Positions 3,501 to 64,000 of a stretch of 64,000 nt of DNA are shown piece after piece. This stretch comes from Naegleria gruberi (lineage: Eukaryota), in NCBI GenBank assembly GCA_000004985.1, contig GG738849.1; one strand, written 5' to 3'. A model generated the notes under the pieces. The model worked only from the letters and a program-made list of their open reading frames with translations. It was not told the origin of the DNA and made no database searches. Each line of letters starts with the position of its first letter. Within the stretch, counting starts at the first letter, position 1. Both the position numbers and the translations under genes were made by a program.

Positions 3501-4825
3501 CCTGATGTTCCCTTAACAGAAAATAACCCATTACAAATATACTTGTCAGGAGAATCATCCTCACTAGTGGAGTCTGTCTTTTTACAAACCAAGTGATCAA
3601 TTTCATTCCAAAAACGAACATGAATTATTTCTAAATGAGCTGATGATTGTCTTCTGGCCCAATTCATAAAGTTTTTCAGTGGACCACTTTTATAATCACT
3701 TCCTAATAAACGTTGGCTTTCAGGTTTGCCAACATGCATAAATGTGCTCGAGTCAAAATCGAGAGAGCCCGAGTAATTTGTTCCCACTTGTTCAGGAAAC
3801 TTTCCTATAAAATCATTTTGTAAACAATTCGTAATTAATATACTAAAATCCTCAATATCCGAATTTTCCAAATTATTGTTATTTGAATTTTGTTCATAGA
3901 TATGTTGTGATTTGGAAGTTGAACTTTCCAACAATGAATTATTGGCCATAATATTATTATTATACCTTGATAAACTTTCCGATAATGAATTATTAACAAA
4001 TTTCAATAGTGATTGATTTGTTATAGTAGCTGCTGTATTACTATTTTTTGAATATTGGTGATGATTGCCTTCTCGTTGCTGTTCTTGTCTACTAGAAAAA
4101 AAGTCTTTTTCACCCATTAACGGCGATTCATTTTTTTGATTCGTTGGTGTTGGTGTGTTGTTATGGTGAACATTCTTGATTGGAGCAGATGTTTGAAAAT
4201 TCAACAAGTTTTCATCTCCGTCCGACATTTGTGTGAGTTGTTTGGAGTTTAATACACAGTATTGGTCCTTCTCACTCAATGAATGAGGAGGATTGAGAAG
4301 AGAAGAAGTATTGAATGATGCTGTTGCTGCGGTAAAATTTGTTAGATTGGAAGAATTAATTGTGCTCTCGAGGTGATTATTTGGTTGTATTGAATGTGGT
4401 TGTTGTTGCTGATTGAACATCCAACGAGTGCCGTGTTGTCTTAAATTAATGCTGCTACTACTATTGCTCTTATTACTTCTTTCCGATGATGAGAGAGATC
4501 GATGATGAAATATATTATTGTGATGAGGTGTTGTTGAGATGGTTGGAGTGAGGCAATCATGATTGTAGTTGTTAGTTGGTGGCAGTGGTTCAGATATTCT
4601 ACGGAAAGAAGGGGAACCATTTGTATGATGATGCTTACTTGGTGATGATGATGATGTTTTAGATTCAACACTTGTGGTAGCAAAGAGTTTTGTTTGTTGT
4701 TCTTTCATGACACTTATTTTCAATGATTCTTTCTGAGCTTTTCCAATACTATGTGTTTGGAAATGATTTATTAGAGATGATGACATTGGATTCTCTTGTG
4801 GTTTCTGTTGATGAAGGTTTTGCAT
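544..4825 (-). CDS. Large low-complexity protein with an aminoglycoside-phosphotransferase/actin-fragmin-kinase-like domain and a C-terminal PTP/DSP-like domain. Two exons, with a putative 43-nt intron at 1021..1063.
   Basis: ORF 983..4825 has a true ATG at 4823-4825. The kinase-like motif is 'FVHGDLNGRNVIL...VWLIDFEYT' (APH/choline-kinase-like Brenner and DFE motifs). The downstream ORF 544..1008 carries a PTP loop 'GLGRSGT' plus 'AVKLARGTRVIENRRQ'. It joins in frame through a GTATGT...TTTTAG intron. The junction predicts 'VVIV|SVSGLGRSGT', a Ser where the catalytic Cys is expected. Confidence 0.55.
1021..1063 (-). other. Putative intron (GTATGT...TTTTAG, 43 nt) joining the kinase-like ORF to the PTP-loop exon.
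   Basis: Minus-strand donor gtatgt at 1063..1058 and acceptor ag at 1022..1021. The frame is preserved (exon 1 phase 0, exon 2 'agt gtt tct ggt ttg gga aga'). Confidence 0.4.
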
Positions 4826-5195
4826 GTTTTTTCTTCTGTTCTAGTAGGTGATGATTCTTCAACTGTTGTTGATCTGGGAAGGAAGTCCTGATTCAACGAT
4901 TGACAGATGAATTTGCAACATTTGTATTATTTATTAATTACAATCTTTATCTTATTTCTGTAAACAATTTCTTAAAGTAGAGTTTCATGTTTCTGATGTA
5001 TTTGAAATCGACTTTACAGTTTAGTTGTTCAACAATTTTCATTTATTGGAAATTATTAAACTAAAACCAAAGCATACTCAAATTTAATTTTCAATTTTTA
5101 TAACTCTTTTAACTAGTTTTATTAAATCATATTACCATATTTTATAACATTTTATTATTAATAAATATTTCTTTTTGAATTCTAACCACAAAAAA
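4826..5195. promoter_or_regulatory. Divergent intergenic region between the APH-kinase-like gene (-) and the DEPDC5 homolog (+).
   Basis: About 370 bp with A/T homopolymer runs ('ttttataactcttttaactagttttattaaatcatattaccatattttataacattttattattaataaatatttctttttg') between two divergent ATGs. Confidence 0.4.
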
Positions 5196-8100
5196 ATGAA
5201 ATTACACAACCGAAGAATTAAACCTGCTGGAAGTGGATTAATTTCAGCCGTGGACAAGAATGCATCCACTGGGAATTTATTGGCACCACCACAACAACAA
5301 AATTCATCAAGGAGTGCTTCACCATCGTCAAACAATGTCGGAGCAGGAAATTTTAATACACCATCATCGAGTTATAGAAAATGTTTATTGATGGTCCATG
5401 AGAAGGATTTTAGTGATCAGGAAATATTAATTAATGGAAAAGCAATTACGTGGCTTCAAATAGGAGATATTTTGGAAATTTCTCAACCAAAGACGCCACC
5501 TTCTAATGAACATAATGCTACTACTTCATCATCACCAGTTTCTTCATCAGTGAATATTAATAGTGCCTCAACACCAATTGATATTTCTGGTGTTGCCACT
5601 CAGAATTATTCGGATTTATCCTTCTCTCCTTTTTCTTCATATAAATCACCAGCAAAAGCATCAACACCACCAACAGGGGCAAGTTTTAAACAAGCACCTT
5701 CAGTGGGGAATGTTACAAGTAATGCACAACAACAACAACCACAACCTAGTTTTACCTCCTCAGCAAGTAATCCAAAGACATTTATTGTAAAAGTAACTTC
5801 TCTAGATGCACAAAAAGGTGTTCCCTATTTGAGCATTTCAAAAAACATTGCAGACGTTTTTGATTTTCAATCGAGAAAGGATGTTTATGTTCGAGTAATA
5901 CCAAAAGAAAGTGCCATGTTGGACTATGCTGTTTTTTCTATTCGGGATCACTTTCTTTCCAGATCAGATATGTGGAGATTTGGATTATATTTGAATGATA
6001 CTAGTGTTTATGAATCAAAAACTTTAACATGGCATGGTGGTATCAGAGTCCAAGTAAAGGAACTCATGAAAGAAACAACTGGAAAAGTGTCATCAGGAAT
6101 AATAGTTTATGGTCATACCAAGATAACATATCGTTCAAATTCAGCTGTAATATATTGGTTATTCCAAATGAGTAGAGAAATGTGGGAATATGACGAGTAT
6201 GGTAACTTGATTTTTGAAAGAGTTATTAATGGATTTATTAAAACAGTTTTTGATAGATGGAGAGAAGTTGGTGTTAACCACTCACTATCAATAGTATTCT
6301 TTTCGAGACACTACATAACAGAAGAGGACAAGGATAATTTTGAAGAGACGAGAAATGAAGAGGATCATATGGCATCCTTAGGAAATAGAACAAATATTAA
6401 TCATTCTATTATTGGATCTAAAGATGGAAAACGATATGTAGATTTTTACAAAGTAGTTGATTGTACTGAAACTCAAAGAATACGATCACAAGAAATCAGA
6501 ATTCTTTTAAAGAAGGAATTTTTAGAATTTGAAAATATGGTAAAAGGTATAGCAGAAAAGGAAAGAGTAGTATTGCAAAATTCATCGGCAGCAGATAGTA
6601 ATTTTATGGAAGCTATTAATTTAGTTTTAAACAGTTATGACAAGTATTACATTAATCGTGATCTTACTAGAACAGGCCAAGTTATTCTTTTGGTATCACC
6701 AGGTAGTGGAATGTTTGATGTACAAATACCAGTTTTGGGTAAGATTACTACCAAAAGGTTGATGGATGTTGGTTTATCAGTTGACCTTATTGCCCATTCT
6801 GTTCCCCCACTTCACTCGGTACCTATTTTCAGGTATAAAAAGAAAGAAGTTGGAGTTTCTAATAACCAAGAATCACCTCATTTGAAGGAATATACATATT
6901 ATAGATCTCCTGATTGGATCAATATTACATTTTACAGAGAAAATTATTTCAAGAATGATATTTGTATAGATCATGAGGATTGTGAATGCACAGATAGCGC
7001 CAGTAATCTCTTCCTCCCAGTTTCTAAAATGCCTAATTTAGAAACGCTTCCAACCAACATTCCACTATTTGAAAAATACTGGACTAACTTTAATTCAATT
7101 AATAGCAATTCTCATCATACCAATAACTCGAGTGGAAGTATTGCAGAATTGTGTCGTCAACATGATGAACAAGTTTTCAAAATCTTCCAACAATCTCGTC
7201 AAACCTCCCACTACCAAACATCTTCCCTTTCCAATATTTCCCACATATCTAAAAAGACAAGCCTCTCATCACACGACCTTATTCATGGAACACCAACAAA
7301 GCAGAGAGAGGAAAGGTCCATAATTTCCGACTCGAGTCCAAAGAATCCCCACATTATCAATCACCACCTGGAAGAATTGAAACAATCTGAACACATTTCA
7401 GGACTGCCCAGCAGTGGTAGCAGTGTTGGATTTGAATCATCTTTTGATACCAATCATCAGAATGACTTCAATGGATCAACACCAAGTAATAATGCATCTA
7501 CAAATACTCCTCAACACGGAGGTTCTCATTCAACTCATCATCTTCCAATCACTCATAATTCTGCCAGTTCAATGGTAAATATGGGCAGTGCAAATAGTGG
7601 TGTTCTGCGACGTTCACCACATTCTGGAACACCATTCATGGCTGAACTAGCTGAAAGACACAAGGCCAAAGAATTGTTCTACATGAAACTGTTCAATCCA
7701 TTCCATATGGATTCCGAAACCTTATCAAGCCCAGGCTCACTTCAAAACAACAATCAACAAAACACTTTCCACAGAAAGAGATGGGGTCACTTACATCCAA
7801 GTTCAGGTCTCAGACCAACCCAAAAATCAGAATATATCAAACATTTTCTTCTCAATGTTAACTGGCAAGGTGTTTCAGAACCTGCCTGTTTACCAATTAC
7901 CACAGATTATTGGCCTGAGTCTGCCCTTAAGATTTTGAATGATTTTGATTTGCACACACATACCATTACTGATACCAATAATATTTACAAAAGTATTTCA
8001 ACCCTTGTGAGAGAATTAGTTTGTCAAAGATTACATCAAGGTTTCCAATTATTTAATGATGATTTACCCAAAGATCCTCTCAGTAACCAACCAATTATAA

Positions 8101-9792
8101 TAACACCTTTGCCAACTCGTAATGATGATACAGATAATACTTCTTCTTCACTGCGATAACACTGAAAAGTCTGATGCATCCAATAATATGGAAGCTGATA
8201 ATATTTCAACTATATCCACTGGATCAAACAATTCTGAACTCTCAACTCAATCAAAGAGAGGAAGAGGAGGAAGAGCTCTCAGAGGAGGAAGAGGTGTCAA
8301 TGCTGCTGCAATGAGAAGAAGGCCACCAACAACCAATACTTCTAACAGCACATCAGAAACAACAGTAACACACGAATCTTCATCAAAACAAAAGGTAAAA
8401 CCTCAAAAGATGGAATATTGTCTTTCTTCAGCAAATCAATTCCACAAAATAACCTACAATCCAAATATTTCCAACATGGTTACAATTGATCGTTATGTTC
8501 CTAAGGTTGCTAAAAGTGCAGACAAACCATCATCAACTACAAGTAGTGGAACCAATAGCTCATCCAATAATAGTTCCTCTACAACACTAGTCAATGATGC
8601 TGATCCATTTAATAATGCTAGATCCACTTACACTTATAGATACATGCTTTGGAATCCAACTTTGAAGAGCTATGAATCCAGAGTTACCAGATTCAATTCA
8701 GCAGTTGACTATAATTGGAATAAGTTGGATTACTTGATTTGTGGTGATCACAATCAAATGACAGACGAACTGCACAACAGATCCCTTCAATTCCACATTG
8801 TGCCAATCAACAACTCTAACAAGAACTTGTTTGCCTCTCAAACTCAATTATTTGGAGCTTTCAATAATAATTCTAGTTTACAGGTGCTTGGTGGTTCTAA
8901 CAACAATTCTAGTAGTGATTTATTCTCACAAGCTTCTAACAGCTCTAATGAATACACCAAGAGATTGGAAAACTTTAAGAAATTTAAAGATGCAATTGTA
9001 AATAGGTCATTTAGGGGAATGGATGGAGATAATGTTGATGTTTCACTTATTGGAGATGAGAGCTCAACTAACCAAATACCATCCAACAGCTCTGCTAAAA
9101 CAGCCAAACTTCAATTTGTCCCACAAGAAGGAGGAATTGATGACAACAGTCGTGTGGAGTGGTTAAATATTGTATATAAGGCATCTTACCATCCTGCAGA
9201 ATTTTGGTCGTTTAAGGTACAATGGCTTGTCTGTACAGCTGCCCTCATTGATGAATTTTTACAGACATTGGCCAGAAGAGCCAGGCAATTAGGATTTGCA
9301 ATGATTCAAACTCCAGCTGAAATTGATAGCTATACAAACTTTGTTCATGCCTCAAAACAAGCTGCAGATAGATTGTTACATGGCAATTATAAAACAGGAG
9401 GTCTAGATCCATTGGAGAATGTACATCCTTTCAGAAGTTATGTCAGAATACCAATTACCTCAATAGAGGCAATGTATTCTATTAGAAATGCCATTTGTGA
9501 ACCTCCTCTTAATTTTATTCCAGACTCTTTCCACAGAAAGAATTCAAAGAGATTTATTCACATCAGTGGTTGCATTATTTTACATATTGATGCTATTAAG
9601 GGCTCTGATACTGCCCTAATTACTTGGATAGACAATCCATTCCAAACTTTTGATTTGAATGTTGCCAATTCAGTCGACCAAAATGATATACTCAACACTT
9701 TGAGAAAACTTGTATTCTCGGAGGCATCAGGAGCAGGCAAGTTCACTTTACAACTAACTCCTGGAAGTAATCCTTTTGAATATTCCCAATAG
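5196..9792 (+). CDS. DEPDC5/Iml1 homolog (GATOR1 subunit). The coding sequence is split into two overlapping ORFs (5175..8159 frame 0 and 8122..9792 frame +1), implying a short intron or a 1-nt frameshift near 8119..8195.
   Basis: The N-terminal region aligns by eye with the human DEPDC5 Iml1 domain ('DMWRFGLYL...VIYWLFQMSREMWEYDEYGNLIFERVINGFIKTVFDRW...SIVFFSRHY' vs 'GDMWRLKKS...[35 protein letters not shown]...VVLFSRTFY'). Total length of about 1530 aa matches DEPDC5. A GTAATG...GGAAG candidate intron (8119..8194, 76 nt) would restore the frame but is not AT-rich. Confidence 0.6.
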
Positions 9793-25251: not shown

Positions 25252-26482
25252 ATGTCTTCAAGCACCGAACCAACAACATCTTCATCAAACTCGGAACAAT
25301 CACTGTATGCAAATTCTGTTAATGATGACAATAATGCATATAAAAGAGTGGAAAAAAGCTATAGAAAACACTTTGTTCCAAACAAGCATGGGAAAATGGT
25401 TGGTAGGTTTATTTGGAATAGTTTCGGTTGTAACACAAATAGAGGCCGATTATCCAGACACAACTAATGTGATTGATTTTCATAATTTGGAAAATAATAC
25501 CCCTGAAAATTTACAAGTTTTGGAACAAGTACAACTTCCTAGTACTGAAATGGATATGAAACATTTTGAAACGGCTTTGGAAAAGTATAATAATTATTTT
25601 GCTAATGATGAACATTTAAAGTCAACCATGTCATTTACAAAGGAAGAACTTTTAAGCAAAAAGATTTATACCTTTAAAGGATATCCTGGTTTTTATGTTA
25701 TTAAAGATTTAATGACACCAGAAAAACAAATCTATTGGATAAAGCAAGCACTAGAAACCTATCCAAATCCACCAAATATTACCAATCACACAATGAAAAA
25801 CGGAGAAATCTTGGATATTTTCAAGAGAAGTGTTGAAGGGGATGAATCTGCAAAGAACTATCTTAAAAAATTGGCTTGGTGCACTCTTGGATATCAATAT
25901 GAGGTGAGTTTTTGGATGATTTTCAAAAATTTACAAGTTGGATTTGTTAAAACAATTTAGTGGACTACAAGAAAATATCACAAGGATAAATTTGTTCAAT
26001 TCCCACATGATATTGGAAATTTCTGTGACCTCATTGCTTGCCAATGTAATTATGGCCCATACAAGCCAGAGGCAGCCATTGTCAATTTCTACTCAAAGGA
26101 CAGACTTATGGGAGGTCATGTTGATGATGCTGAATATGAAATGACCAAACCAATCATCAGTTTGAGTATTGGATCAAAATCAATTTTTTTGCTTGGAGGT
26201 GAAACAAGAGATACTGAACCAAAGGCTATTTTCTTGGAATCTGGTGATTGTATGATTATGGGAGGAAGAGCAAGATATTGCTTCCATGGTATTGCTAGAA
26301 TTCTCAAAGATACTATTCCAGAATATCTTCAAACTAAGTTCGTCGATCCAAAATATAAAATCTATGCTGAATATATGGAAAGAGACATGATGAGAATTAA
26401 TATTAATGCAAGACAAGTTTTTGTCGATGAAGAACAGAAGCAAGATTTTGATACTAATGGTCCTGTAACATCATCTCAATAA
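25252..26482 (+). CDS. AlkB-family Fe(II)/2-oxoglutarate dioxygenase (ALKBH1-like). Three exons: ~25252..25402, ~25443..25903 and 25961..26482.
   Basis: 'SYRKHFVPNKHG', 'VIDF', 'KGYPGFYVIKDLMTPEKQIYWIKQALETYPNPPN', 'LAWCTLGYQYE|WTTRKY' and 'GPYKPEAAIVNFYSKDRLMGGHVDDAEYEMTKPIISLSIGSKSIFLLGG...GDCMIMGGRARYCFHGI' parallel human ALKBH1, including the HxD...H iron ligands. A GTGAGT...ATTTAG intron lies at 25904..25960. The first intron (about 25403..25442, GTAGGT...AAATAG) is less certain. Confidence 0.75.
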
Positions 26483-42377: not shown

Positions 42378-44877
42378 CTACAAGTAATATTGTTTCTTGT
42401 TGAGATTTTTGTGAGGACTTTTAGAAATGTTCGATTGACCATGTAAAAATGCTACCTTGTGAGCTAATATACAAGGTACAGGAACACTCGAAATTCCCAA
42501 ACGATTATAATACAAGTGACACAATTGGTACGATATATTCTGATAGAATACCTTATTAAATCCACTCCCATTTTCCAAAACCTTATACCTTGTTGGAGTT
42601 GCTGTTCCCTGAAACGAATCAACATGATGAGATTGAAGAAAGAATGACATTTCGTTTGGATCTGATGTCAGAATATCACCATCTAGAACTGTTCCTGGTT
42701 TCAAATTACCAAAATTGTTTCCATTTAGCCCAGCATATATTCTATTATTGATTCGTTTAAGTACAAGAATGAAATTGAGTGGAATAGAGTTGTATTCTTT
42801 GCAAACTTGTTGGATGGCTAATATCTCCTGATTGTAAATGTGATCTTCTTGCCCTGAACCTACACCATCTCTATAGAAAATAATATGTGTTGGAGAAGTT
42901 TTGTTCTCATTCATGAAATTCTCAATTGCATTCCTCATTAGATTTTTGATATTTTCAACCAACTCAACTCCTGGCTTCTGGACTTGGATTTGAGAATAGT
43001 ATGCGCATACCTTTGAATCGTAGGATGATACGAAACCAACGAGAGAGGATTTACTTCGATGGTAAACTTCACCTGAATGATTAACATCCATTCCGACAAT
43101 CATGGTATGTGGTTTCATTGGAATTGATGTCATCCAAGGAATTCCTCCAAGTTTAGCATTCATTTCAATTGTGATATTCTTCAAAATAGATGATTTTTTT
43201 TCAGAGATAGCAATGTTCCTCTCAGTAATGCATTGGCTAGGAATTCCCATATCTACAATGGTTTTTTCTTTCAAGGTATGGTATTCGGTACTTGTTTTGT
43301 TTTTAGTTATCATGAGAATGAATGAGATTGGGTAAGAATTTCTAATAGTATCAGTGAGATCTTTTTTTGAAACATGAGGAACATATTGTTGAAAGACATA
43401 GTTCATATTGGATGTTTCTAAATTCATTTGAGAACAAAACTGTTGCAACTTGTTGCAAAAGTCAACCAAATCTTTTGATTTTGTACCTTGATGAAGAACC
43501 AATACGCGTTCAAGAGATTTGCATTCGAACATGTTACTATTATTTTCAATTTTGAACATTCCTCTTTCTTTTTCAATTTTAACTTTTCCTCCAATTTTAA
43601 TGGAACAATCTTCAAGTGATTCCGTTTGCACTTGAATCATTTTTGGGACAATAGATATACCCTACTTATCCAGCTCTAATTTGAACTCTGAATGTTCCAA
43701 ACATTCGCGTTGATTGTTTAAAGTTTCTCTAATTCTGTCATTTGGTGGTTTTTTAGTGACAGAGGCAATTTTCTGCATTGTGGTAAAATTACTTCTCATA
43801 TCCTGACTTATTCCTGTCAATAGACACAACGAAGGAATATAGTATTCAACCTTTCCATTCCTCTTGTTAATATGTTTAAGTAAGGGTTGTTTCAAATCAA
43901 CGTCTTCACCATATTGTGTATTGTAATATTCTGCGAATGTAATTTCCTTTCCTTGAAAATTGAATGTTGACACAGGACTCATATCAAATTCAACACTTTC
44001 AATATAAATAGTTTTCTTTCTGTAAGTCAAGTAAACAATAGAATTTCCAAATTCTCTCTTGATTTTCGTTTGGGCAGAACGTTCTCCAAACTGTTCAATA
44101 ATCTTTTTCATTTGGCTTAAAACAGTATCTGTTCTCATAGTTTTATAAATTGGCTCAACTAGGAGAGCAAGGCCTTTAGAGGTGGTACAGGTTGAGCTTA
44201 GAGTTCCTCCCAATATTTGAAGCCCACAATCATGAATAGTTGTTTTGGTCTCTTCATTGTAAAAGTTTCTTCCAATTCTTGTTAGATTCAACTTGGCTTG
44301 AGCGTTCTTAAGGACAGAGTTGACGAATTGTACAAAGTCCTTTCCAGAATTTGAAACAGTAATGGTTGTTGCCAGCGTGATTGAAACAGTGTACACAATA
44401 TTTCCAATAGAACACGTCTTTTCTAAGTGTTTCTTTTGAGGTGGAAGAATTGAGTTGAGAGAGTATAAAATTGACCCACTCTGTAAGAAGTCAATTAGAA
44501 AGTCACTTAAAGCCTGCTTTACAATCCTATTAGCAAGGTATTTGTTTTCAATTTGCGGACTAATGTTAACATGGTACTGATAAATTGAAGTGTGCTTTCA
44601 ATTCAATTGGGAACATGTTGATTACATCCTTTCCCTTTCCCAAATTAAAATAATCAACAACTGGAATTTGGGACAAGGGTTGGCTAGGTGAATTTGAGGA
44701 GAATTGATTTGTTTTCTTATGATGTTGGTTGTGTGGCTTCTTGTCAGAGTTATAGGCTTTGTACTTGGTTCCTTGTGATAACATTTTTTCTTGTTGTGTT
44801 TTCTTCCATTTTGCAATTCCCAACCCAAAAATAACAATGTTGGGAAGTCTGGAAGATATGTTGAGTTGGGAAAGCAA
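42378..44877 (-). CDS. Piwi-like Argonaute protein (PAZ plus PIWI domains). The PAZ-containing exon (43665..~44571) and the PIWI-containing ORF (42378..43640) are in the same frame, separated by one in-frame TAG (43662..43664) plus 21 nt. An upstream exon lies at about 44621..44877 with an intron at about 44572..44620.
   Basis: PAZ-like 'FNFQGKEITFAEYYNTQYGEDVDLKQPLLKHINKRNGKVEYYIPSLCLLTG'. PIWI motifs 'IIFYRDGVGSGQ', 'GTATPTRYKVL', 'LCHLYYNRLGISSVPVPCILAHKVAFL'. 'MIVGMDVNH' is the first catalytic Asp. Frame arithmetic: (44396-42378+1) is divisible by 3. The GTAATC...TTTATCAG intron joins 'NLGKGKD|YHVNISPQ'. Confidence 0.7.
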
Positions 44878-44922: not shown

Positions 44923-46756
44923 TTATTTGAAAACTTGTGATATCACACCAAGTCCCTTTGTTGTTCCTTCACGGAAGATTAATCGTTCACCAACTCTGAG
45001 ATATTCAGGTCTGAACAGGAATCTAAATTTGACTTTAGCCTTTTCACCTGTTCTTAGAGATTCATTATCGTTAATCTTTACAAGTTTAGCAGATTGTCTA
45101 ATACAATTACAATGTATAACTGGTTGATAATTTTCCTTAATAGTGGTACTATGATACAATACGAGAATATCAGCTTCAAATTCCCAAACAGCTTTTGGTT
45201 CTTCTTCGTCTACAATAACCATTCCCTTTCTAATTCCGGAACGTCTTTCTTTTTTCAATGCAAAACTTGCTTGTTGACCAGCATGAACTCTTTTCACGTT
45301 GACTCTCTTACAATGAATACTCTTAATTACGACACTTCTGAAATGTCCGTTGCTATCTGGTCCTAGCATTAGTTTGTCATTTACAGAAATACTTCCACTT
45401 TGTACAATACCAGAAACAACTGTACCAACACCACTGACAAAGAAGGTTTGATCAATGACATATTGTGCTGGTTTGTCAATTAATGATTCCCAATCTTTTC
45501 TAATTGGTAACAGATTGAGGAACTTATGCAAGAGTTGCAGATTTTCACCAGTTACTGAACTCATCAAGAACATTGGACAAATTCTGTCACTTGCTAAATT
45601 TTTGGCACAAGTCAGAACATCGTCATCATTCTTGACATGATATGGTAACTTTCTAACTCCAGGAAGTTTAAGAATTTTGTGAATGGTTTCAATAGTTTGT
45701 TTGAGAATATTTTCTGGACAAATGTCAACCTTAGTAATGCAGAAAAACATTGGAATCTTGAGAGCCAGACACAATCCGATATGTTCCTTGGTCATCTATA
45801 GTCATTGTTAGCATTCAAAAATAATTTTAAAAACTTACCTTTGTGACACCCATGTTACTACCAACACATAGGAGAGCATAATCTGGTCCTGTTGTCATAC
45901 CAAAAACGGTTGTTTTCAAGTACTTTTCGTGTCCAGCAAGGTCAATAAATGTACAAACTTTTGATGACTTATCAATAATATCTTTCCATGAAGGAGACTG
46001 TAAGTTTGAGTAATTTACAGTGTCACCTTTAGAATCAAATCCCATAATTTGATGACTGATACTAGAAGTTCTTCCTGTTGTCAATTCGTGCTTGTGGACA
46101 AAAACATTAGAACGAGCTAATCCTCTACCATTGTCAAGTTGTCCATGTGTCAGCACACCAATAAGTGTTGATTTTCCAGAGTCAACATTACCACAAACTG
46201 CAATATTTACATTCAAATATTCTTCTTCTCCGAATCTTCTTACAAGCACTTCAGCAACCCATCTCTTTTCTTCTGGATTGGTTATAGTAGCAGCTTGCTT
46301 CTTATTCTTTTTACCTTCGGAGGATACTTGCTTTTCACAAATAACTGAAACAGTGGCTTGTAACTCGATGGCCATCTTTTCAATATTTCCTAGTGTTTCT
46401 CTGTATTCTTCCTCAACTAATCCCAATGGATAGCCATCATCGTTGATTCCTATTTCATAGATGGCTTCACCTTGTCCTTCAGATAAACGATAGGACATTT
46501 GGGTAACAAGATGTTTAAATCTATCTTCTGACAATCCTACTAACTTCCATTTGTATTCTACATTTCCATCATCACTTTCCTTGGATAATATTTCATTAGA
46601 TGCCAAAAGTGATTTTTCTTCAATTAATTCCTTATCTTGCTCTAAATTGATAACTTGTTTATGTTCTGTACCAGAAGAAGAAGAAGCTTTTGTAGTAGTA
46701 GTGGCACCATTAACACTCTCTGTTGTTGATGGTATGGGATCTTTAGTCTCTGACAT
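44923..46756 (-). CDS. GTP-binding protein 1 (GTPBP1/AGP-1 family translational GTPase). Two exons with a 43-nt intron (45796..45838).
   Basis: 'EGQGEAIYEIGINDDGYPLGL', G1 'AVCGNVDSGKSTLIGVL', G3 'IDLAGHEKY', 'SNMGVTK|MTKEHIGLCLALKIPMFFCITKVDICP' across a GTAAGT...CTATAG intron, and a beta-barrel domain 2 'VSGVGTVVSGIVQSG'. Confidence 0.8.
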
Positions 46757-53349: not shown

Positions 53350-54939
53350 TTATTCCATATTGTTGTGTTGATGACGATGGGTGTAGTTTGTACTTGAAGA
53401 CTTTTTAGCAGTGAATTTATATTGAGCTGCAAATACATCTGATGGAATATCCTTTGCTCCTTCACGATATAAAACTTCTACAGTCCTTGATGTTGGACTG
53501 AATGGGAATGATTCAAGTAATGAAAATGCTTTCCAATCTTGATTAAATCGTAAATATGTTGCCAACATGGTATTATAAAGACGTTCTCTAAGGGATTCAT
53601 CTTGAATCTTGTCACGGAATCGGAAAAATACTCTCTCAGCTTCATTGAGATTACCAGTTATTGTGTATGCATAAATGATTTGATAGGCAGAATTTGAACC
53701 TCCTGTTTTGTCTATTATTATTCTTTCCAATTCTTTCAGTTCATTAAGCTTTTTTGAATCTGCAAGAGCAATCAATAAAATTCTATAAGAATTGATTGGA
53801 ATTTCATATCCATCCTTTAACAATTCAACATAGTAGTGATAGACCTTATCTAATTGGTTCTTGTTAAAGTAATAATAGAATAAGAATGAATAAATGGAAA
53901 CTGAAGGTTTAACCTTATCCTTTCTCATATGACTGAATAAAAATGAAATTAAATCATTTCTATCTTGATTACAGGCAGCAGAAATTAAAATTGTATATGT
54001 TGAGGTCATTCTCTTAATACCCATATCAGGCATTTCATGGAAGAAACGAAGTGCCAAATCAATATTATTGTTTTTAACGTGATGATTAAGAATTGGAGCA
54101 AAGATATCGGCTGTCAAGTGCTTTGAACCTTGCAATTTGACAGTAATTTCGTGAGCTTTTTCCATCATACCTACATTGACATAGGCATAAACAAGGGAAG
54201 ACCAGTGTCTACCATTTGGATTTTGTAATCTAGAAAAGAGAGCTTCAACTTTTTCAATATCCTTCATTCTTGCATAAAGTGTAATTCCTGTATGGATAAT
54301 ATTTTCGTTATTATTATCCTTAACATTTTCAAAAATCTCTAATGCTTCCTTGATACATCCTCTTTCTTCATAAAACTTCATCAAAACTCCATAAACTGAT
54401 GATCTTGGCAATTGTTTGATTGATTTAATATTGTCAAATAAATGTTCTTCTGAAACTCTACGATTAAAGATACATAAATCTGATAATTGTTTAAATACTT
54501 CCGATTGTAATTCAGGTGAAGCATCTTCTTGTCCATTCTTCTTGACATATTCTAAAATCTCGTTTAATACTTTAACGTTTGGAGTAAATGTATTGGTGTG
54601 TTTAATGGCAGAATCAAATATAGCTGTTTTTAATTCATTAATAGATGATTCTTTAGAAACTTCCTCTAGAAGAAAATCATCAACAAAAACATCTCCGATA
54701 GTAGGAGCTGGTGTTGTTGGTAAAGAAGTTTCTGTAGTACTATTTGTTATTGCTTCAACTTCCTCACTAATTGGTGTGGTGCTATTGTTCATTCCTCTCA
54801 TAATAGTGTGATATTTGTTATTAGTAGATGAAACAAAGCAACTTTGAGTGCTTTTGGAAAAATTCATGAATTTATATTGTGGTAGAGCACCTCTCATCAC
54901 AACTTTGGAGACAATTCTTGGTAATTGTGACGCTCTCAT
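53350..54939 (-). CDS. Pentatricopeptide/TPR-like repeat protein, probably mitochondrial.
   Basis: Repeated 35-aa helical-hairpin units ('YNTMLATYLRFNQDWKAFSLLESF', 'IIYAYTITGNLNEAERVFFRF', 'YTILISAACNQDRNDLISFLFSHM'); N-terminus is presequence-like; true ATG at 54937-54939. Confidence 0.5.
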   Translation of the reverse strand: MRASQLPRIVSKVVMRGALPQYKFMNFSKSTQSCFVSSTNNKYHTIMRGMNNSTTPISEEVEAITNSTTETSLPTTPAPTIGDVFVDDFLLEEVSKESSINELKTAIFDSAIKHTNTFTPNVKVLNEILEYVKKNGQEDASPELQSEVFKQLSDLCIFNRRVSEEHLFDNIKSIKQLPRSSVYGVLMKFYEERGCIKEALEIFENVKDNNNENIIHTGITLYARMKDIEKVEALFSRLQNPNGRHWSSLVYAYVNVGMMEKAHEITVKLQGSKHLTADIFAPILNHHVKNNNIDLALRFFHEMPDMGIKRMTSTYTILISAACNQDRNDLISFLFSHMRKDKVKPSVSIYSFLFYYYFNKNQLDKVYHYYVELLKDGYEIPINSYRILLIALADSKKLNELKELERIIIDKTGGSNSAYQIIYAYTITGNLNEAERVFFRFRDKIQDESLRERLYNTMLATYLRFNQDWKAFSLLESFPFSPTSRTVEVLYREGAKDIPSDVFAAQYKFTAKKSSSTNYTHRHQHNNME

Positions 54940-55097: not shown

Positions 55098-56776
55098 TTA
55101 GTAGTCTTGGGATGATTCGAGTAATTCTCTTTTCATTCTATTAATGTCCTCAATAGAGAACCCTTCATTCTCATCCTCCCTCTCTTCTTCCAATGACGAG
55201 TTTGGTGAATGAGCTTGAATCCTTGAATTTTCTCGTTTCTTATTTTGTGAAGCTCTCTTCACTTTGCTTGTCTTTTTCCAGTAAGCATTGTAAATGTCAT
55301 TCAATAATCCCCAAATTGTGTCATAATCTCCTGAAATAACTTCTTTCGTGGACCACAAGAAACGAAGCTCAATTGTCTTGTTATCCCTTAATACTGAAAA
55401 CACCCGTTCCAAATTATTGTGCATGGCCGCAGTAGTTTGAGGAAGTCTGCTAATTCCTTTCATTTTTCCCTCTCCTTCAATTCGAGCAACTATTTCTGCA
55501 AATTTTAAGCCAGTCCTCAAATCATTTTCGCATTGAATGTTTGAATTGAATTCGATACCTAAATCGTATTCAATCCACCGGGCAATATGTTTAAATTTCT
55601 CCATAGAGTTCTCGTCTAAAATTTGTGGCTCATTATTCTTTTGTACAAATGATTTTCTCTCTGCTCTCATTGGCTGCTCTACTTGCTGATGAGTTACCTC
55701 AGGTTCCTCCTCTTCCTCTCGATCCACATTTGGTTTCCTTGTAGGAATGAAAATTCGTTTGCTTTGGGTATGTCCACTTGTTTTTGAACTGGTTTTGGTT
55801 GCGAAGTAATTGCAAGATCTTCAGTGTTGGTTTGGGAATTGTAGAGTGGAGCAGAGACTGGTGCACTTGGTTGATTGGAAGAAACATTCTTGATATTTAG
55901 TTTTGGAATGGAAGTAGTTGGTTTAAAAGGCAAGTTCGATTTTCTTGGTTTGTTTGCTGATACTTGTCGATTCTTCCAGTCCAAGTCCAGATTTCTTCTA
56001 TTATCCAATTCCCCCAGGAATCTTGTCCTTGTAGATTCTTCATCTGCAATAAGAGATTCCTTTTTAATATACACTGATCTCATTACTGGACCAATAGAGG
56101 GCCTTCTATCAATATCCATATCCCCATTTGAATCGGATTCCAATACATTAAGGGGTTGAGATTTTTTCATATCATTCATTTGATTTCTCCTTGATGTATT
56201 ATTATTAATTGGTGGATCGTCTTCCCACGACACCTTAGGTTTTGTTGACTGTTTTTCTTGTTCCTGTTTCTTGCTTGTTGTATCCAATATTTCGTCCTGC
56301 TGTGGTTGATGATTTGATTTTGATGAACTAAAACTTTGACGTTGTTTCTCCAATTCTACTTGATTTTCGAAGTGTTCTTTGAGGAATCCCACTGATATAA
56401 CAGTTCTAATCGGAGGTGTACACTGAGGTCTCCTCCTTTCTCTTCCTATTAATTTGTGGTAAAATCCAGAGAAGGTAGTATTTAGGGAAGAATTGGTAGT
56501 ATTGATAGTTGATTGTACATTGTGAAACCTTGAAGAAGAAATTACTTCTTCCTCTTCATCCTCTGAGGATTCTGTATTTTCTGTATTAGGTTGTGCATTT
56601 GTTGATTTATCAACTTGTTGAAATGAAGGAAGGGAAGATGGATCACGATAAATAGAGGGATTTGCAAACTTTGATTTGAGGGCTGTTATTCCGTTCTGTG
56701 TCGATGAATTATTGCCAAGCACAATTATTTTGCCCTTAGAAAAACTCGTGCTCGAACCAAGATGAGCAGTTTTCAT
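55098..56776 (-). CDS. Hypothetical S/T-rich protein with a C-terminal calponin-homology-like domain. Two overlapping ORFs (55694..56800 and 55098..55727) in different frames, so either a frameshift or two tightly packed genes.
   Basis: The C-terminal ORF 'EKFKHIARWIEYDLGIEF...LRTGLKFAEIVARIEG...NLERVFSVLRDNKTIELRF...DTIWGLLNDIYNAYWKK' resembles Hook/SPEF-type CH domains. The upstream ORF stops 23 nt before the first ATG of the downstream ORF, on the same strand. Confidence 0.3.
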
Positions 56777-57145
56777 ATTCTTTTTTGTGATGATTTTCAA
56801 AATTACGAGTAACGTTCAAATGTTGTGGCTTCTCTGTTTAGTAAGTTCTTAATGGGAAAATTCACTGCTGTGAAGATGGTGCTATTTGTCTGGTACCCAA
56901 ATCAAATTTAAGCAAACAGGTCATGAATTCCTCATATTTATCTATTGAAAAATGTTCCATTGGAAATAATTCTTCTTTTATTGAGGTTTTTTAATAGTTA
57001 TGTACACAACAATTTTAGGCGCCAAATAATTAAAAAACATGGGATTGCATTAAAATCGTAACTTAATCAATTAAAAAAAACATCAACACACTTTTCCGCA
57101 CCAACTGATTAGAGTGTTGTATTTTTGCTGTTGCTGTTGTATTTA

Positions 57146-63145: not shown

Positions 63146-64000
63146 TTGCACAGAAAAAAACTACTCATGGAAGGAATTGATATGCATAAAAAGATCATGG
63201 AATATAAGATAGAATCCTTAAAGGTTGACAATGCACTGATGAACTTTTATACGAAATGTGAAATGCCAGATGAAGCATTAGAAATTTTTGACCACCTCAA
63301 AAGTGAAAAGAAACCAATTGATATTATAACATGGACTTGTACTATTCAAGCTTACATGTCCAAAAATCAAGTTTCAAAAGCTATGTCCTTACTCTCAGAA
63401 ATTCAATTATATCAAACCCCTGACCCAATATTGTTTTCAACAGTATTACATATTTGTGCTGAAAATAGGTTGATTGAAGAAGGACAGGAAATTCATCAAA
63501 GAATTAACAAATTGAAAAAGCAGAATATCATTTTAGACAATGCACTGATGAATTTTTATACGAAATGTGGAATGCCAGAAAAAGCATTAGAAATATTTGA
63601 AAAACTCAAAAGTGAAAAGAAGCCAATGGAGGTCATGATATGGAACTGTGCAATTCAAGCTCTTGGTGAACAAAAGAAGGCCATTGAGGCATTTTCTCTT
63701 TTCAAAGAAATGGAAAGTAATAGCATAATTCCAACTGAGATTACATTTAATATCTTGTTAAATATTTGTGCTGAAAATAAGTTGATTGAGGAAAGGACAG
63801 GAAATTCATCAAAGAATCAAAAAATTGAAAAAGCAGAATATCATTTTAGACAATGCATTGATGAATTTTTATACTAAATGTAAAATGCCAGATGAAGCAT
63901 TAGAAATATTTGAACAACTCAAAAATGAAAAGAAACCAATTGATATTATAACATGGACTTGTGCTATTCAAGCTCTTGTACAAAAGAAATGCATTGATGA
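63146..64000 (+). CDS. PLS-like pentatricopeptide repeat protein built from tandem DNA repeats of about 315 nt; 3' partial at the window edge. A frameshift lies at about 63790 in the third repeat, after which the ORF ends at 63877 and the repeat continues in another frame.
   Basis: 'DNALMNFYTKCEMPDEALEIFDHLKSEKKPIDIITWTCTIQAYMS...KAMSLLSEIQL...PDPILFSTVLHICAENRLIEEGQEIHQRI' then a near-identical second unit 'DNALMNFYTKCGMPEKALEIFEKLKSEKKPMEVMIWNCAIQALGEQ...'. This architecture mirrors plant PLS PPRs ('ALIDMYAKCG...A..VF..M..KDVVSWNAMI.GY...EAL.LF..M...G..PD..TF..VL.AC.H.GLV.EG'). Nucleotide units 63223-63540, 63538-63850 and 63848-64000 are more than 85% identical. Confidence 0.6.
63181..64000 (+). 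repeat. Tandem nucleotide repeat (period about 315 nt, at least 2.6 copies, continuing beyond the window) encoding the PPR triplets.
   Basis: Direct comparison of 63223..63345, 63539..63661 and 63850..63972: 'gacaatgcactgatgaa(c/t)ttttatac(g/t)aaatgt(g/a)(a/g)aatgccaga...' is conserved nearly base for base. Confidence 0.8.

What the first reader, a model, noticed from the sequence alone, without database searches (positions are those of the whole stretch)
43600..43700. Piwi/Argonaute ORF interrupted by a single in-frame TAG between the PAZ and PIWI domains
The PAZ-containing ORF (43662..44396) and the PIWI-containing ORF (42378..43640) are in the same frame. They are separated only by TAG (43662-43664) plus 7 sense codons (G I S I V P K) and then ATG. 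No GT...AG pair of length 3n removes the stop. The options are a sequencing error, a recent nonsense mutation (pseudogene), two separate products (a PAZ-only protein and a PIWI-only protein restarting at the ATG), or stop-codon readthrough. The PIWI part retains 'IIFYRDGVGSGQ' and the first catalytic Asp context, so it is not obviously decayed.
Basis: seen in the sequence. Interest (0 to 1): 0.6.

Follow-up and report, generated by a model that had tools for sequence, protein, structure and literature searches.

The report
Naegleria Piwi gene with premature stop
A small-RNA-guided silencing gene (a Piwi-type Argonaute) of the amoeba Naegleria gruberi is cut short by one stop codon sitting where its relatives have tryptophan; this is most likely a very recent knockout mutation or a base-calling error, so it is an ordinary finding.

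Summary
On the minus strand, one frame carries a PAZ ORF and a PIWI ORF. They are separated only by TAG (43664..43662), seven sense codons and an ATG.

The window is Naegleria gruberi NEG-M, not a dictyostelid. GenBank already annotates the locus as two fragmentary "predicted proteins", one of which ends exactly at this TAG.

Removing a 31-nt intron gives a single 791-codon Piwi-clade gene, colinear with silkworm Siwi (E 1e-90). The TAG aligns with a tryptophan present in 123 of 149 homologs and in N. gruberi's own intact 898-aa paralog. That implies TGG>TAG (W364*).

- **Everything else is intact:** the DEDH slicer tetrad, the Y-K-Q-K 5'-phosphate pocket, the C-terminal YYL and the codon bias of both halves.
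- **TAG is a genuine stop here:** the gene itself ends with TAG.
- **No bypass is apparent:** no plausible intron removes the TAG, its context (UAG-G) is not leaky, and no RNA structure follows it.
- **The gene looks dispensable:** it evolves faster than its paralog.

Best reading: a very young nonsense allele, i.e. a nascent pseudogene of a redundant Piwi paralog (about 0.6). A consensus base error comes second (about 0.25). Recoding or a deliberately split Piwi is unlikely. Reads are needed to decide. Low interest.

The parts
44626..44784 (-). Exon 1 of the Piwi gene (codons 1-53, ATG at 44784). The N-terminus is short and has no RG/RGG repeats.
   Evidence: Frame 0 reads MLSQGTKY...VVDYFNLGKGKD. 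The alignments to Siwi and to the N. gruberi paralog P0165 run across the exon junction.
44595..44625 (-). 31-nt intron (GTAATC...TTGAAAG), phase 0.
   Evidence: Removing it joins the frames and restores ...DYFNLGKGKD|HTSIYQYHVNISPQ..., which is colinear with Siwi NYFTVET-TPKWGLYQYHVDISP and with P0165. Other short GT..AG introns of 32-57 nt occur in the window.
42378..44594 (-). Exon 2 (codons 54-791 plus the terminal TAG at 42380..42378). It contains the in-frame TAG.
   Evidence: It is one continuous frame. The in-frame codon-usage score is the same before and after the TAG (0.139 vs 0.141 nats per codon).
43662..43664 (-). In-frame TAG, codon 364, in the stretch between the Pfam PAZ (214-334) and Piwi (479-774) matches, which I take to be the L2 linker. 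It occupies the column of a conserved Trp.
   Evidence: It aligns with W of Siwi (ELATWSLKL) and PIWIL1 (ELRDWGLSF). The column has W in 123, F in 13 and Y in 6 of 149 homologs. The N. gruberi paralog has W (LGLWGLEIN).
43752..44114 (-). PAZ domain (residues 214-334).
   Evidence: Pfam PF02170, E 1.7e-22. Coordinates.
42432..43319 (-). Piwi domain (residues 479-774).
   Evidence: Pfam PF02171, E 7.7e-70. Coordinates.
43152..43283 (-). MID-domain 5'-phosphate pocket residues Y491, K495, Q507 and K534, all present.
   Evidence: These are invariant columns in alignment A1. Codons verified.
42459..43088 (-). Span holding the slicer tetrad D556 (43088..43086), E597 (42965..42963), D629 (42869..42867) and H765 (42461..42459), all present.
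   Evidence: Invariant or nearly invariant columns in A1. Alignment to Siwi. Codons verified.
43638..43640 (-). ATG (Met372), seven codons after the TAG. It starts the mechanical 420-aa PIWI ORF.
   Evidence: It aligns with L/M/P/V in homologs, so it is an ordinary internal residue and not an evolved start codon.
43662..44138 (-). Public gene model NAEGRDRAFT_78309 (EFC49086.1, 158 aa). This PAZ fragment runs from internal Met206 to the TAG.
   Evidence: P0006 is 100% identical to residues 206-363.
42378..43406 (-). Public gene model NAEGRDRAFT_63051 (EFC49085.1, 342 aa). This PIWI fragment starts at internal Met450.
   Evidence: P0002 is 100% identical to residues 450-791.

Best explanation
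The locus is one two-exon, 791-codon Piwi-clade Argonaute gene of Naegleria gruberi NEG-M. It is a fast-evolving second copy alongside an intact 898-aa paralog elsewhere in the genome. A single G>A transition has turned the conserved tryptophan codon 364 (TGG), between the PAZ and MID-PIWI parts, into TAG.

Translation would stop after the N-L1-PAZ half (363 aa). That product lacks the guide-anchoring MID pocket and the slicer domain, so this copy is non-functional. The lesion is very young: it may be a nascent pseudogene, one null allele of a heterozygous clone, or a mutation fixed in the long-cultured axenic strain. The two 'predicted proteins' in the public annotation are fragments of this one disrupted gene.

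- **Shown:** the gene structure, the position and nature of the stop, the integrity of everything else, the existence of the paralog, and the faster evolution.
- **Inferred:** that the A is really present in the organism's DNA, and that the truncated product is inactive.
For: - **One gene.** It aligns in a single stretch with Siwi 156-899 (E 1e-90) and PIWIL1 (2e-87), against about 1e-38 for Ago-clade proteins. Pfam finds PAZ plus Piwi.
- **TAG sits on a conserved Trp.** The column has W in 123 of 149 homologs, and W in Siwi, PIWIL1, Willaertia and the N. gruberi paralog P0165. TGG to TAG is one transition.
- **TAG is a true stop in this genome.** The gene's own terminator, directly after the universally C-terminal ...YYL, is TAG. 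Several other ORFs in the window also end in TAG.
- **The stop is in the public assembly.** EFC49086.1 ends at K363.
- **The lesion is young.** There is no other stop or frameshift in 2,373 nt. With 4.6% of point substitutions creating stops, neutral divergence since inactivation must be below about 3%, or below about 1% if indels are counted. The DEDH tetrad, the Y-K-Q-K pocket and the C-terminus are intact. Codon bias is equal in both halves.
- **The gene is plausibly dispensable.** The intact paralog P0165 'argonaute [Naegleria gruberi]' is 36% identical. The window copy carries more lineage-specific changes than the paralog: 163 vs 61 with Willaertia as reference, and 100 vs 68, 97 vs 73 and 88 vs 66 with distant outgroups. 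It is the 5th most divergent of 151 Piwi proteins and deviates at 5 of 53 highly conserved columns against a median of 1. No homolog more than 36% identical was found in the searches.
- **Null alleles are plausible.** Naegleria is described as a heterozygous diploid that reproduces mitotically (PMC9928731).
Against: - **No reads could be examined.** No traces or independent assembly of N. gruberi were reachable with these tools. The A at 43663 therefore rests on the reference consensus alone.
- **A single lesion in an otherwise perfect gene is also what a consensus base error looks like.**
- **Every functional residue is retained,** so there is no positive sign of decay after the stop.
- **The faster evolution must largely predate the stop,** because the ORF is still open. 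It shows weaker constraint, not pseudogenisation.
- **The relative-rate test with Willaertia as outgroup may be inflated** if P0165 is Willaertia's ortholog and the window copy is an older paralog. With distant outgroups the excess is only 1.3-1.5-fold (chi2 3.1-6.1).
Confidence: 0.6

Rival explanations
1. Base-calling or assembly error. The organism has TGG, the gene is an intact and functional 791-aa Piwi paralog, and only the reference consensus and its annotation are wrong.
For: There is one lesion in 2,373 nt and everything else is intact: DEDH, Y-K-Q-K, the C-terminal YYL, the intron, and equal codon bias in both halves. The difference from the expected codon is a single base. From my own knowledge, not checked here, the reference is an older Sanger shotgun assembly.
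Against: From general knowledge, consensus substitution errors in multi-fold Sanger assemblies are rare. The other ORF breaks I examined in the window are explained by canonical or plausible short introns and need no errors. The gene shows independent signs of weak constraint and has a redundant paralog, which makes a real knockout unsurprising.
Confidence: 0.25
2. Recoding. The UAG is decoded as, or converted to, a sense codon so that a full-length Piwi is made. This could happen by programmed readthrough, or by A-to-I mRNA editing of UAG to UIG (read as Trp), possibly restricted to one life stage.
For: The stop sits exactly where Trp belongs, which is the signature expected of an editing-corrected stop. 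The downstream 427 codons are fully open and retain all catalytic residues.
Against: The context is UAG-G, and by general knowledge of eukaryotic termination a purine at +4 favours efficient termination. The 126 nt around and after the TAG fold no better than shuffles (z = -0.07). TAG terminates this very gene and other ORFs in the window. No other gene in the window has such a stop. The only RNA editing linked to Naegleria in the paper I read is DYW-type C-to-U editing, presumed mitochondrial (PMC3239186), and that cannot turn UAG into UGG. The intact paralog uses a normal Trp.
Confidence: 0.06
3. A deliberately split Piwi. An N-L1-PAZ protein (363 aa) and an L2-MID-PIWI protein starting at Met372 are both made, by reinitiation or from an internal promoter, and work together. 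This would resemble prokaryotic short Argonautes with separate partner proteins.
For: The break lies between the PAZ and MID-PIWI parts of the protein. An ATG in an A-rich context (AAAAATG, like the gene's own start) follows 21 nt after the stop. The half after the TAG has diverged from the paralog more than the half before it, 33.6% vs 41.3% identity. That ratio of 0.81 is outside the 0.98-1.35 range of all other pairs, so the two halves may be under different constraints.
Against: By general knowledge, eukaryotic ribosomes reinitiate poorly after a 363-codon ORF. The TGGGA core of the calicivirus-type reinitiation (TURBS) motif is not visible in the ~60 nt before the stop (read by eye, not searched). 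A 21-nt spacer leaves no room for a promoter. Met372 is an inherited internal hydrophobic position (L/M/P/V in homologs; M in P0152) and not a new start. The stop replaces a conserved Trp and does not sit in a variable linker residue. No split eukaryotic Piwi is known to me.
Confidence: 0.04
4. An unrecognised intron removes the TAG, so the gene is normal.
For: GT..AG pairs of length 3n spanning the TAG do exist, for example 72 nt (43702..43631), 99 nt (43760..43662), 102 nt (43665..43564) and 162 nt (43792..43631). Introns in this genome can be tiny, and one in-frame intron elsewhere in the window ends in TAG.
Against: Every candidate would delete residues that align in frame with homologs on both sides of the TAG, including the conserved P337-x-x-R motif and the W-G motif. 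Only the 162-nt and longer candidates starting at 43792 have the local GTRA donor, and they delete 54 or more aligned residues. The TAG column itself is homologous to Trp.
Confidence: 0.02

Closest known systems
Naegleria gruberi 'argonaute' (P0165, 898 aa; NCBI/UniRef entry named argonaute [Naegleria gruberi], on a different 381,539-bp scaffold)
   Same: Same genome and same Piwi-clade architecture. It is the window gene's best match, with 36% identity over 773 residues (E 2e-155). The two share lineage peculiarities: both lack the usual G-R after the Trp (VETTVL vs VQTESL) and both have the VD-x-x-QGTATPT insertion. It has Trp at the TAG column.
   Different: P0165 is uninterrupted and carries an RGG-rich N-terminal extension that the window gene lacks. 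It evolves more slowly and is closer to Willaertia (42-44%) than the window copy is (30-31%).
Willaertia magna hypothetical protein KAL9646069.1 (P0003, 858 aa)
   Same: It is a full-length Piwi-clade protein from a related heterolobosean amoeba. It is colinear with the window gene (31% identity, E 7e-104), has Trp at the TAG column and shares the HSGE(I/V) motif.
   Different: It is intact and has an RGG N-terminus. It is probably the ortholog of the other N. gruberi copy (P0165), not of the window gene.
Animal PIWI proteins with solved structures: silkworm Siwi (PDB 5GUH), PIWIL1 (9S0Z), sponge Piwi-A (7KX7), Drosophila Piwi (6KR6)
   Same: The domain order is the same end to end (E 1e-90 to 3e-76). 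The DEDH tetrad, the Y-K-Q-K pocket and the C-terminal ...Y(Y/F)L are all shared.
   Different: Identity is only about 28-30%. The window gene has a stop at the conserved Trp and no N-terminal arginine-rich Tudor-binding region. It has substitutions at five otherwise highly conserved positions (at least 90% in 151 sequences): E308S, Q530E, P684L, W751R and L788Q.
Young unitary or duplicate pseudogenes and segregating nonsense alleles (general class)
   Same: There is a single disabling point mutation in an otherwise intact ORF of a redundant, fast-evolving paralog.
   Different: Neither relaxed selection after the lesion nor loss of expression could be shown here. The allele's presence in the organism is unverified.
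Stop-correcting A-to-I mRNA editing in filamentous fungi (e.g. Fusarium PUK1; recalled from memory, not checked here)
   Same: A genomic TAG stands at a position where the protein needs Trp.
   Different: No evidence of nuclear A-to-I mRNA editing in Naegleria was found. This is a single case in the window, and the paralog encodes Trp normally.

Membership tests
Piwi-clade Argonaute (eukaryotic PIWI subfamily) | N-L1-PAZ-L2-MID-PIWI architecture in one polypeptide-length alignment | tested here: met
   Pfam finds PAZ 214-334 and Piwi 479-774. A single HMMER stretch aligns residues 44-791 to Siwi 156-899.
Piwi-clade Argonaute (eukaryotic PIWI subfamily) | Closer to PIWI-clade than to AGO-clade proteins | tested here: met
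   PIWI-clade structures score E 1e-90 to 1e-72, while AGO1-4 score 1e-38 to 3e-31. The nearest database relatives are Piwi/aubergine-like proteins.
Piwi-clade Argonaute (eukaryotic PIWI subfamily) | Slicer catalytic tetrad D-E-D-H | tested here: met
   D556, E597, D629 and H765 are present at invariant or nearly invariant columns.
Piwi-clade Argonaute (eukaryotic PIWI subfamily) | MID 5'-phosphate pocket Y-K-Q-K and a free C-terminal hydrophobic residue | tested here: met
   Y491, K495, Q507 and K534 are invariant. The protein ends ...KKQYYL at the same final column as all 15 aligned homologs.
Piwi-clade Argonaute (eukaryotic PIWI subfamily) | Uninterrupted reading frame encoding all domains | tested here: not met
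   TAG at codon 364. It is therefore a disrupted member as it stands in the assembly.
Piwi-clade Argonaute (eukaryotic PIWI subfamily) | N-terminal arginine-glycine repeats (methyl-arginine sites for Tudor partners) | tested here: not met
   No RG/RGG occurs in residues 1-43. The repeats are present in the paralog P0165 and in Willaertia P0003. Only 138 nt of upstream intergenic space remain, which leaves no room for a missing exon.
Piwi-clade Argonaute (eukaryotic PIWI subfamily) | Binds 24-31-nt, 3'-2'-O-methylated guide RNAs | not testable with these tools
   This needs small-RNA sequencing or immunoprecipitation.
Pseudogene (young, non-processed) | At least one disabling lesion relative to functional homologs | tested here: met
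   W364*.
Pseudogene (young, non-processed) | Relaxed selection or accumulating further lesions | tested here: inconclusive
   There is no second lesion, and bounds the age. The gene evolves 1.3-2.7 times faster than its paralog, but that acceleration must largely predate the stop. No ortholog close enough for dN/dS was found.
Pseudogene (young, non-processed) | Lesion really present in genomic DNA, and loss of full-length product | not testable with these tools
   No reads, ESTs or proteomics were reachable.
Programmed stop-codon readthrough | Leaky stop context and/or a stimulatory downstream RNA structure | tested here: not met
   The context is UAG-G-GU. The MFE z-score is -0.07 against 200 shuffles.
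Programmed stop-codon readthrough | Stop conserved among orthologs | not testable with these tools
   No orthologs are available. The paralog and 142 of 149 homologs have an aromatic residue at this column.
Variant genetic code (TAG as a sense codon) | In-frame TAGs frequent in genes, and TAG not used as a terminator | tested here: not met
   Long ORFs of up to 1,280 codons contain no TAG. TAG ends several ORFs and this gene itself, directly after the conserved C-terminus.

The most novel reading that the evidence does not exclude
The TAG is real and tolerated because the cell bypasses or exploits it. One possibility is stage-specific conversion of UAG to a Trp codon (A-to-I editing or suppression), so that full-length Piwi is made only in a rarely seen life stage such as the never-observed sexual cycle of Naegleria. 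The other is a naturally split eukaryotic Piwi, with the PAZ part and the MID-PIWI part made as separate polypeptides, echoing prokaryotic short Argonaute systems.
Probability: 0.07. Interest if true: 0.7.

Novelty: new member of a known kind. Interest (0 to 1): 0.2.

Why it matters
The practical value is a correction to the annotation. Two anonymous 'predicted proteins' of the N. gruberi reference (NAEGRDRAFT_78309 and NAEGRDRAFT_63051) are halves of one Piwi-clade gene. N. gruberi therefore has at least two Piwi-clade loci, one intact and one carrying W364*. This matters to anyone cataloguing RNA-silencing machinery in Heterolobosea or planning RNAi in Naegleria.

If the stop is real, it is a snapshot of a redundant Piwi paralog at the moment of loss. 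If it is an error, the species simply has two working Piwi genes. Only the unlikely recoding or split-protein readings would be of wider interest.

Tried and rejected
- **Variant genetic code or ciliate origin.** Tiny introns plus an in-frame TAG first suggested this. I rejected it because ORFs of up to 1,280 codons contain no internal TAA/TAG/TGA, all three stops end ORFs (TAA mostly), and TAG ends this gene.
- **An intron removing the TAG.** I listed all GT/GC..AG and AT..AC pairs of length 3n. All of them delete residues that align with homologs.
- **Readthrough-promoting RNA structure.** None was found.
- **Independent sequence for the locus.** Exact-protein look-ups of the 420-, 342-, 244- and 158-aa products, of a neighbouring gene and of the paralog all returned nothing. 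A degenerate 39-nt DNA pattern allowing TAG or TGG found nothing in the metagenome collection.
- **Word-indexed protein searches with the window protein or a five-sequence profile.** These returned only one or two distant hits. The search seeded with Willaertia was the one that revealed the N. gruberi paralog.
- **dN/dS.** It was not possible, because the closest relative is 36% identical.
- **Literature.** No paper in the searchable library cites either locus tag or accession. The Naegleria pangenome paper mentions RNAi genes, but its held supplements do not list these loci. The 2010 genome paper is not held.
- **Assembly quality.** I asked whether other ORF breaks in the window indicate a poor assembly. 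The ones examined are explained by canonical or plausible short introns.
- **Structure prediction.** I did not run it, because sequence colinearity with solved PIWI structures was already decisive.
Full report
**Observation.** The minus strand reads ...GAG CTG GAT AAG TAG GGT ATA TCT ATT GTC CCA AAA ATG ATT.... TAG lies at 43664..43662, followed by seven sense codons (G I S I V P K) and ATG at 43640. The mechanical ORFs 43662..44396 and 42378..43640 share one frame. Pfam places a PAZ domain upstream and a Piwi domain downstream. In the whole 64-kb window only four stops have at least 100 open codons on both sides. Two of them (16478, 30612) are TAA stops at the ends of long ORFs, and I did not examine the open stretch after them. 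One (25958) is the last three bases of an in-frame 57-nt intron. The fourth is this one, with 311 and 427 open codons.

**Source and existing annotation.** An exhaustive HMMER search found two proteins 100% identical to parts of the conceptual product. They are EFC49086.1 / NAEGRDRAFT_78309 (158 aa, residues 206-363, ending exactly at the TAG) and EFC49085.1 / NAEGRDRAFT_63051 (342 aa, residues 450-791). Both are 'predicted protein [Naegleria gruberi]' on one 850,158-bp scaffold. The window is therefore N. gruberi NEG-M (Heterolobosea), not a dictyostelid. The TAG is in the public reference, and the annotation already treats the locus as two unrelated fragments. No paper in the searchable library mentions either locus.

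**Gene model.**
- The PAZ frame is open upstream to codon 54 but has no start there.
- A different frame carries MLSQGTKY...VVDYFNLGKGKD from ATG 44784.
- Removing a 31-nt GTAATC...GAAAG intron (44625..44595) joins the two frames into ...DYFNLGKGKD|HTSIYQYHVNISPQ....
- That junction matches the hallmark N-domain motif of Siwi (NYFTVET-TPKWGLYQYHVDISP) and of the N. gruberi paralog.
- Comparably short GT..AG introns occur in neighbouring genes: 43 nt with GTAAGT...CTAAC...TAG, 57 nt and a candidate of 32 nt.
- The gene therefore has two exons and 791 codons, and it ends ...KKQYYL-TAG.

**What the protein is.** The conceptual product aligns in one stretch with silkworm Siwi residues 156-899 (E 1e-90), PIWIL1 (2e-87) and other PIWI-clade structures. 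AGO-clade proteins score about 1e-38. The functional residues are all present:
- the slicer tetrad D556/E597/D629/H765;
- the 5'-phosphate pocket Y491/K495/Q507/K534;
- the terminal Leu, which is the last residue in all 15 aligned homologs.

**What the TAG replaces.** In the PDB alignments the TAG column is Trp (Siwi ELATWSLKL, PIWIL1 ELRDWGLSF). In a 151-sequence alignment it is W in 123, F in 13 and Y in 6 of 149 homologs. Trp has one codon, TGG, and TAG is a single G>A transition away. The stop lies at residue 364, between the Pfam PAZ (214-334) and Piwi (479-774) matches, in what I take to be the L2 linker.

**Is the TAG bypassed?**
- *Genetic code.* The code is standard. ORFs of up to 1,280 codons contain no internal stops, all three stop codons end ORFs, and TAG terminates this gene directly after the obligatory C-terminus.
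Every one deletes residues that align in frame with homologs, such as the conserved P-x-x-R and W-G motifs. Most also lack the local GTRA donor.
- *Readthrough.* The context is UAG-G, and the flanking 126 nt fold no better than shuffles (z = -0.07).
- *Reinitiation.* Met372 aligns with L/M/P/V in homologs (M in P0152), so it is an inherited internal residue. Only 21 nt separate the stop from this ATG.
- *Editing.* The only RNA editing linked to Naegleria in what I read is DYW-type C-to-U editing, presumed mitochondrial (PMC3239186). That cannot convert UAG to UGG.

**Evolutionary context.** A search seeded with the Willaertia magna Piwi returned 'argonaute [Naegleria gruberi]' (P0165, 898 aa) on another scaffold.
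- P0165 is the window gene's best match, with 36% identity over 773 residues (E 2e-155).
- The two share lineage-specific features. P0165 has Trp at the TAG column and an RGG-rich N-terminus that the window gene lacks.
- N. gruberi thus has an intact Piwi-clade paralog.
- The window copy has more unique changes than P0165: 163 vs 61 with Willaertia as reference, and 100 vs 68, 97 vs 73 and 88 vs 66 with distant outgroups.
- The window copy is the 5th most divergent of 151 proteins.
- It departs from 5 of 53 highly conserved columns, against a median of 1.
- The half after the TAG is less similar to P0165 (33.6%) than the half before it (41.3%). That ratio is outside the range of all other pairs.
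- This extra divergence cannot be post-stop drift. About 4.6% of point substitutions in this CDS create stops, so even 5% neutral divergence would give about 5 further stops (P = 0.004 of seeing none). None is seen.
- Codon bias is identical on the two sides (0.139 vs 0.141 nats per codon).

Together these results describe a weakly constrained, redundant paralog that was kept open by selection until very recently.

**Conclusion.** The most likely account (about 0.6) is a real, very young nonsense mutation, W364*. It could be a nascent pseudogene, a heterozygous null allele captured by the consensus, or a mutation of the long-cultured axenic strain. Naegleria is described as a heterozygous, mitotically reproducing diploid (PMC9928731). 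A consensus base error (about 0.25) predicts exactly the same sequence picture and cannot be excluded without reads. Recoding (about 0.06), a deliberately split Piwi (about 0.04) and an unrecognised intron (about 0.02) have no positive support.

I could not reach any independent N. gruberi data. Exact-protein look-ups and a degenerate DNA pattern scan all came back empty.

**Assessment.** This is an ordinary finding: a disrupted member of a well-known family. Its value is as an annotation correction and as a note that N. gruberi has at least two Piwi-clade loci. Neighbouring genes are unrelated housekeeping genes and do not form an RNAi cluster: a GTPBP1-like GTPase, a coiled-coil protein, a GKRP-like protein, kinases, PIG-M, PPR proteins and a cyclophilin.

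Noticed in passing
window 25904..25960 (+): There is an in-frame 57-nt intron (GTGAGT...TTTAG) in a gene that reads like an AlkB-type oxygenase (my recollection; no domain search was run on it). Its last three bases are an in-frame TAG followed by TGG (Trp). On raw sequence it mimics a 'single in-frame stop' but is a normal intron (...LGYQYE|WTTRKY...).
   Followed up: partly
window 45796..45838 (-), 55666..55697 (-) and 44595..44625 (-): Very short spliceosomal introns occur: 43 nt with GTAAGT...CTAAC...TAG in a GTPBP1-like GTPase gene, a candidate of 32 nt (GTAACT...AATGAG) joining ORFs 55694..56800 and 55098..55727, and the 31-nt Piwi intron. Introns this small are easily mistaken for frameshifts.
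   Followed up: partly
window 8119..8194 (+), between ORFs 5175..8159 and 8122..9792: The Iml1/DEPDC5 homolog (IML1 N-terminal domains, then DEPDC5_CTD) is split over two overlapping frames in a low-complexity region. A 76-nt GTAATG...GGAAG intron would join them, but this is unverified. A frameshift in the assembly is the alternative.
   Followed up: partly
window 983..4825 (-): A 1,280-aa protein has a strong match to Pfam TCAD9 (Ternary complex associated domain 9, E 1.9e-38). From memory this domain is described mainly from prokaryotic systems, so it is unusual in a eukaryotic gene.
   Followed up: no
window 44784..42378 (-): The window Piwi has only one remaining Trp codon (W540). It has replaced the nearly invariant W751 with Arg and E308 with Ser, and it lacks the RGG-rich N-terminus present in its paralog and in Willaertia. 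These are signs of an atypical or weakly constrained Piwi, independent of the stop.
   Followed up: partly
window 53350..54939 (-) and 63146..63877 (+): The first ORF is a pentatricopeptide-repeat protein by Pfam. The second only looks repeat-like by eye and was not scanned. Naegleria is known for PPR/DYW organellar editing factors, and I did not check whether these carry DYW domains.
   Followed up: no
protein searches: With the Willaertia Piwi as query, no N. fowleri or N. lovaniensis protein appeared at E <= 1e-30, although the N. gruberi paralog did. A 2026 review lists a single Argonaute homolog in N. fowleri (PMC13315211). Piwi-clade genes may be reduced or lost in the pathogenic lineage.
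   Followed up: no
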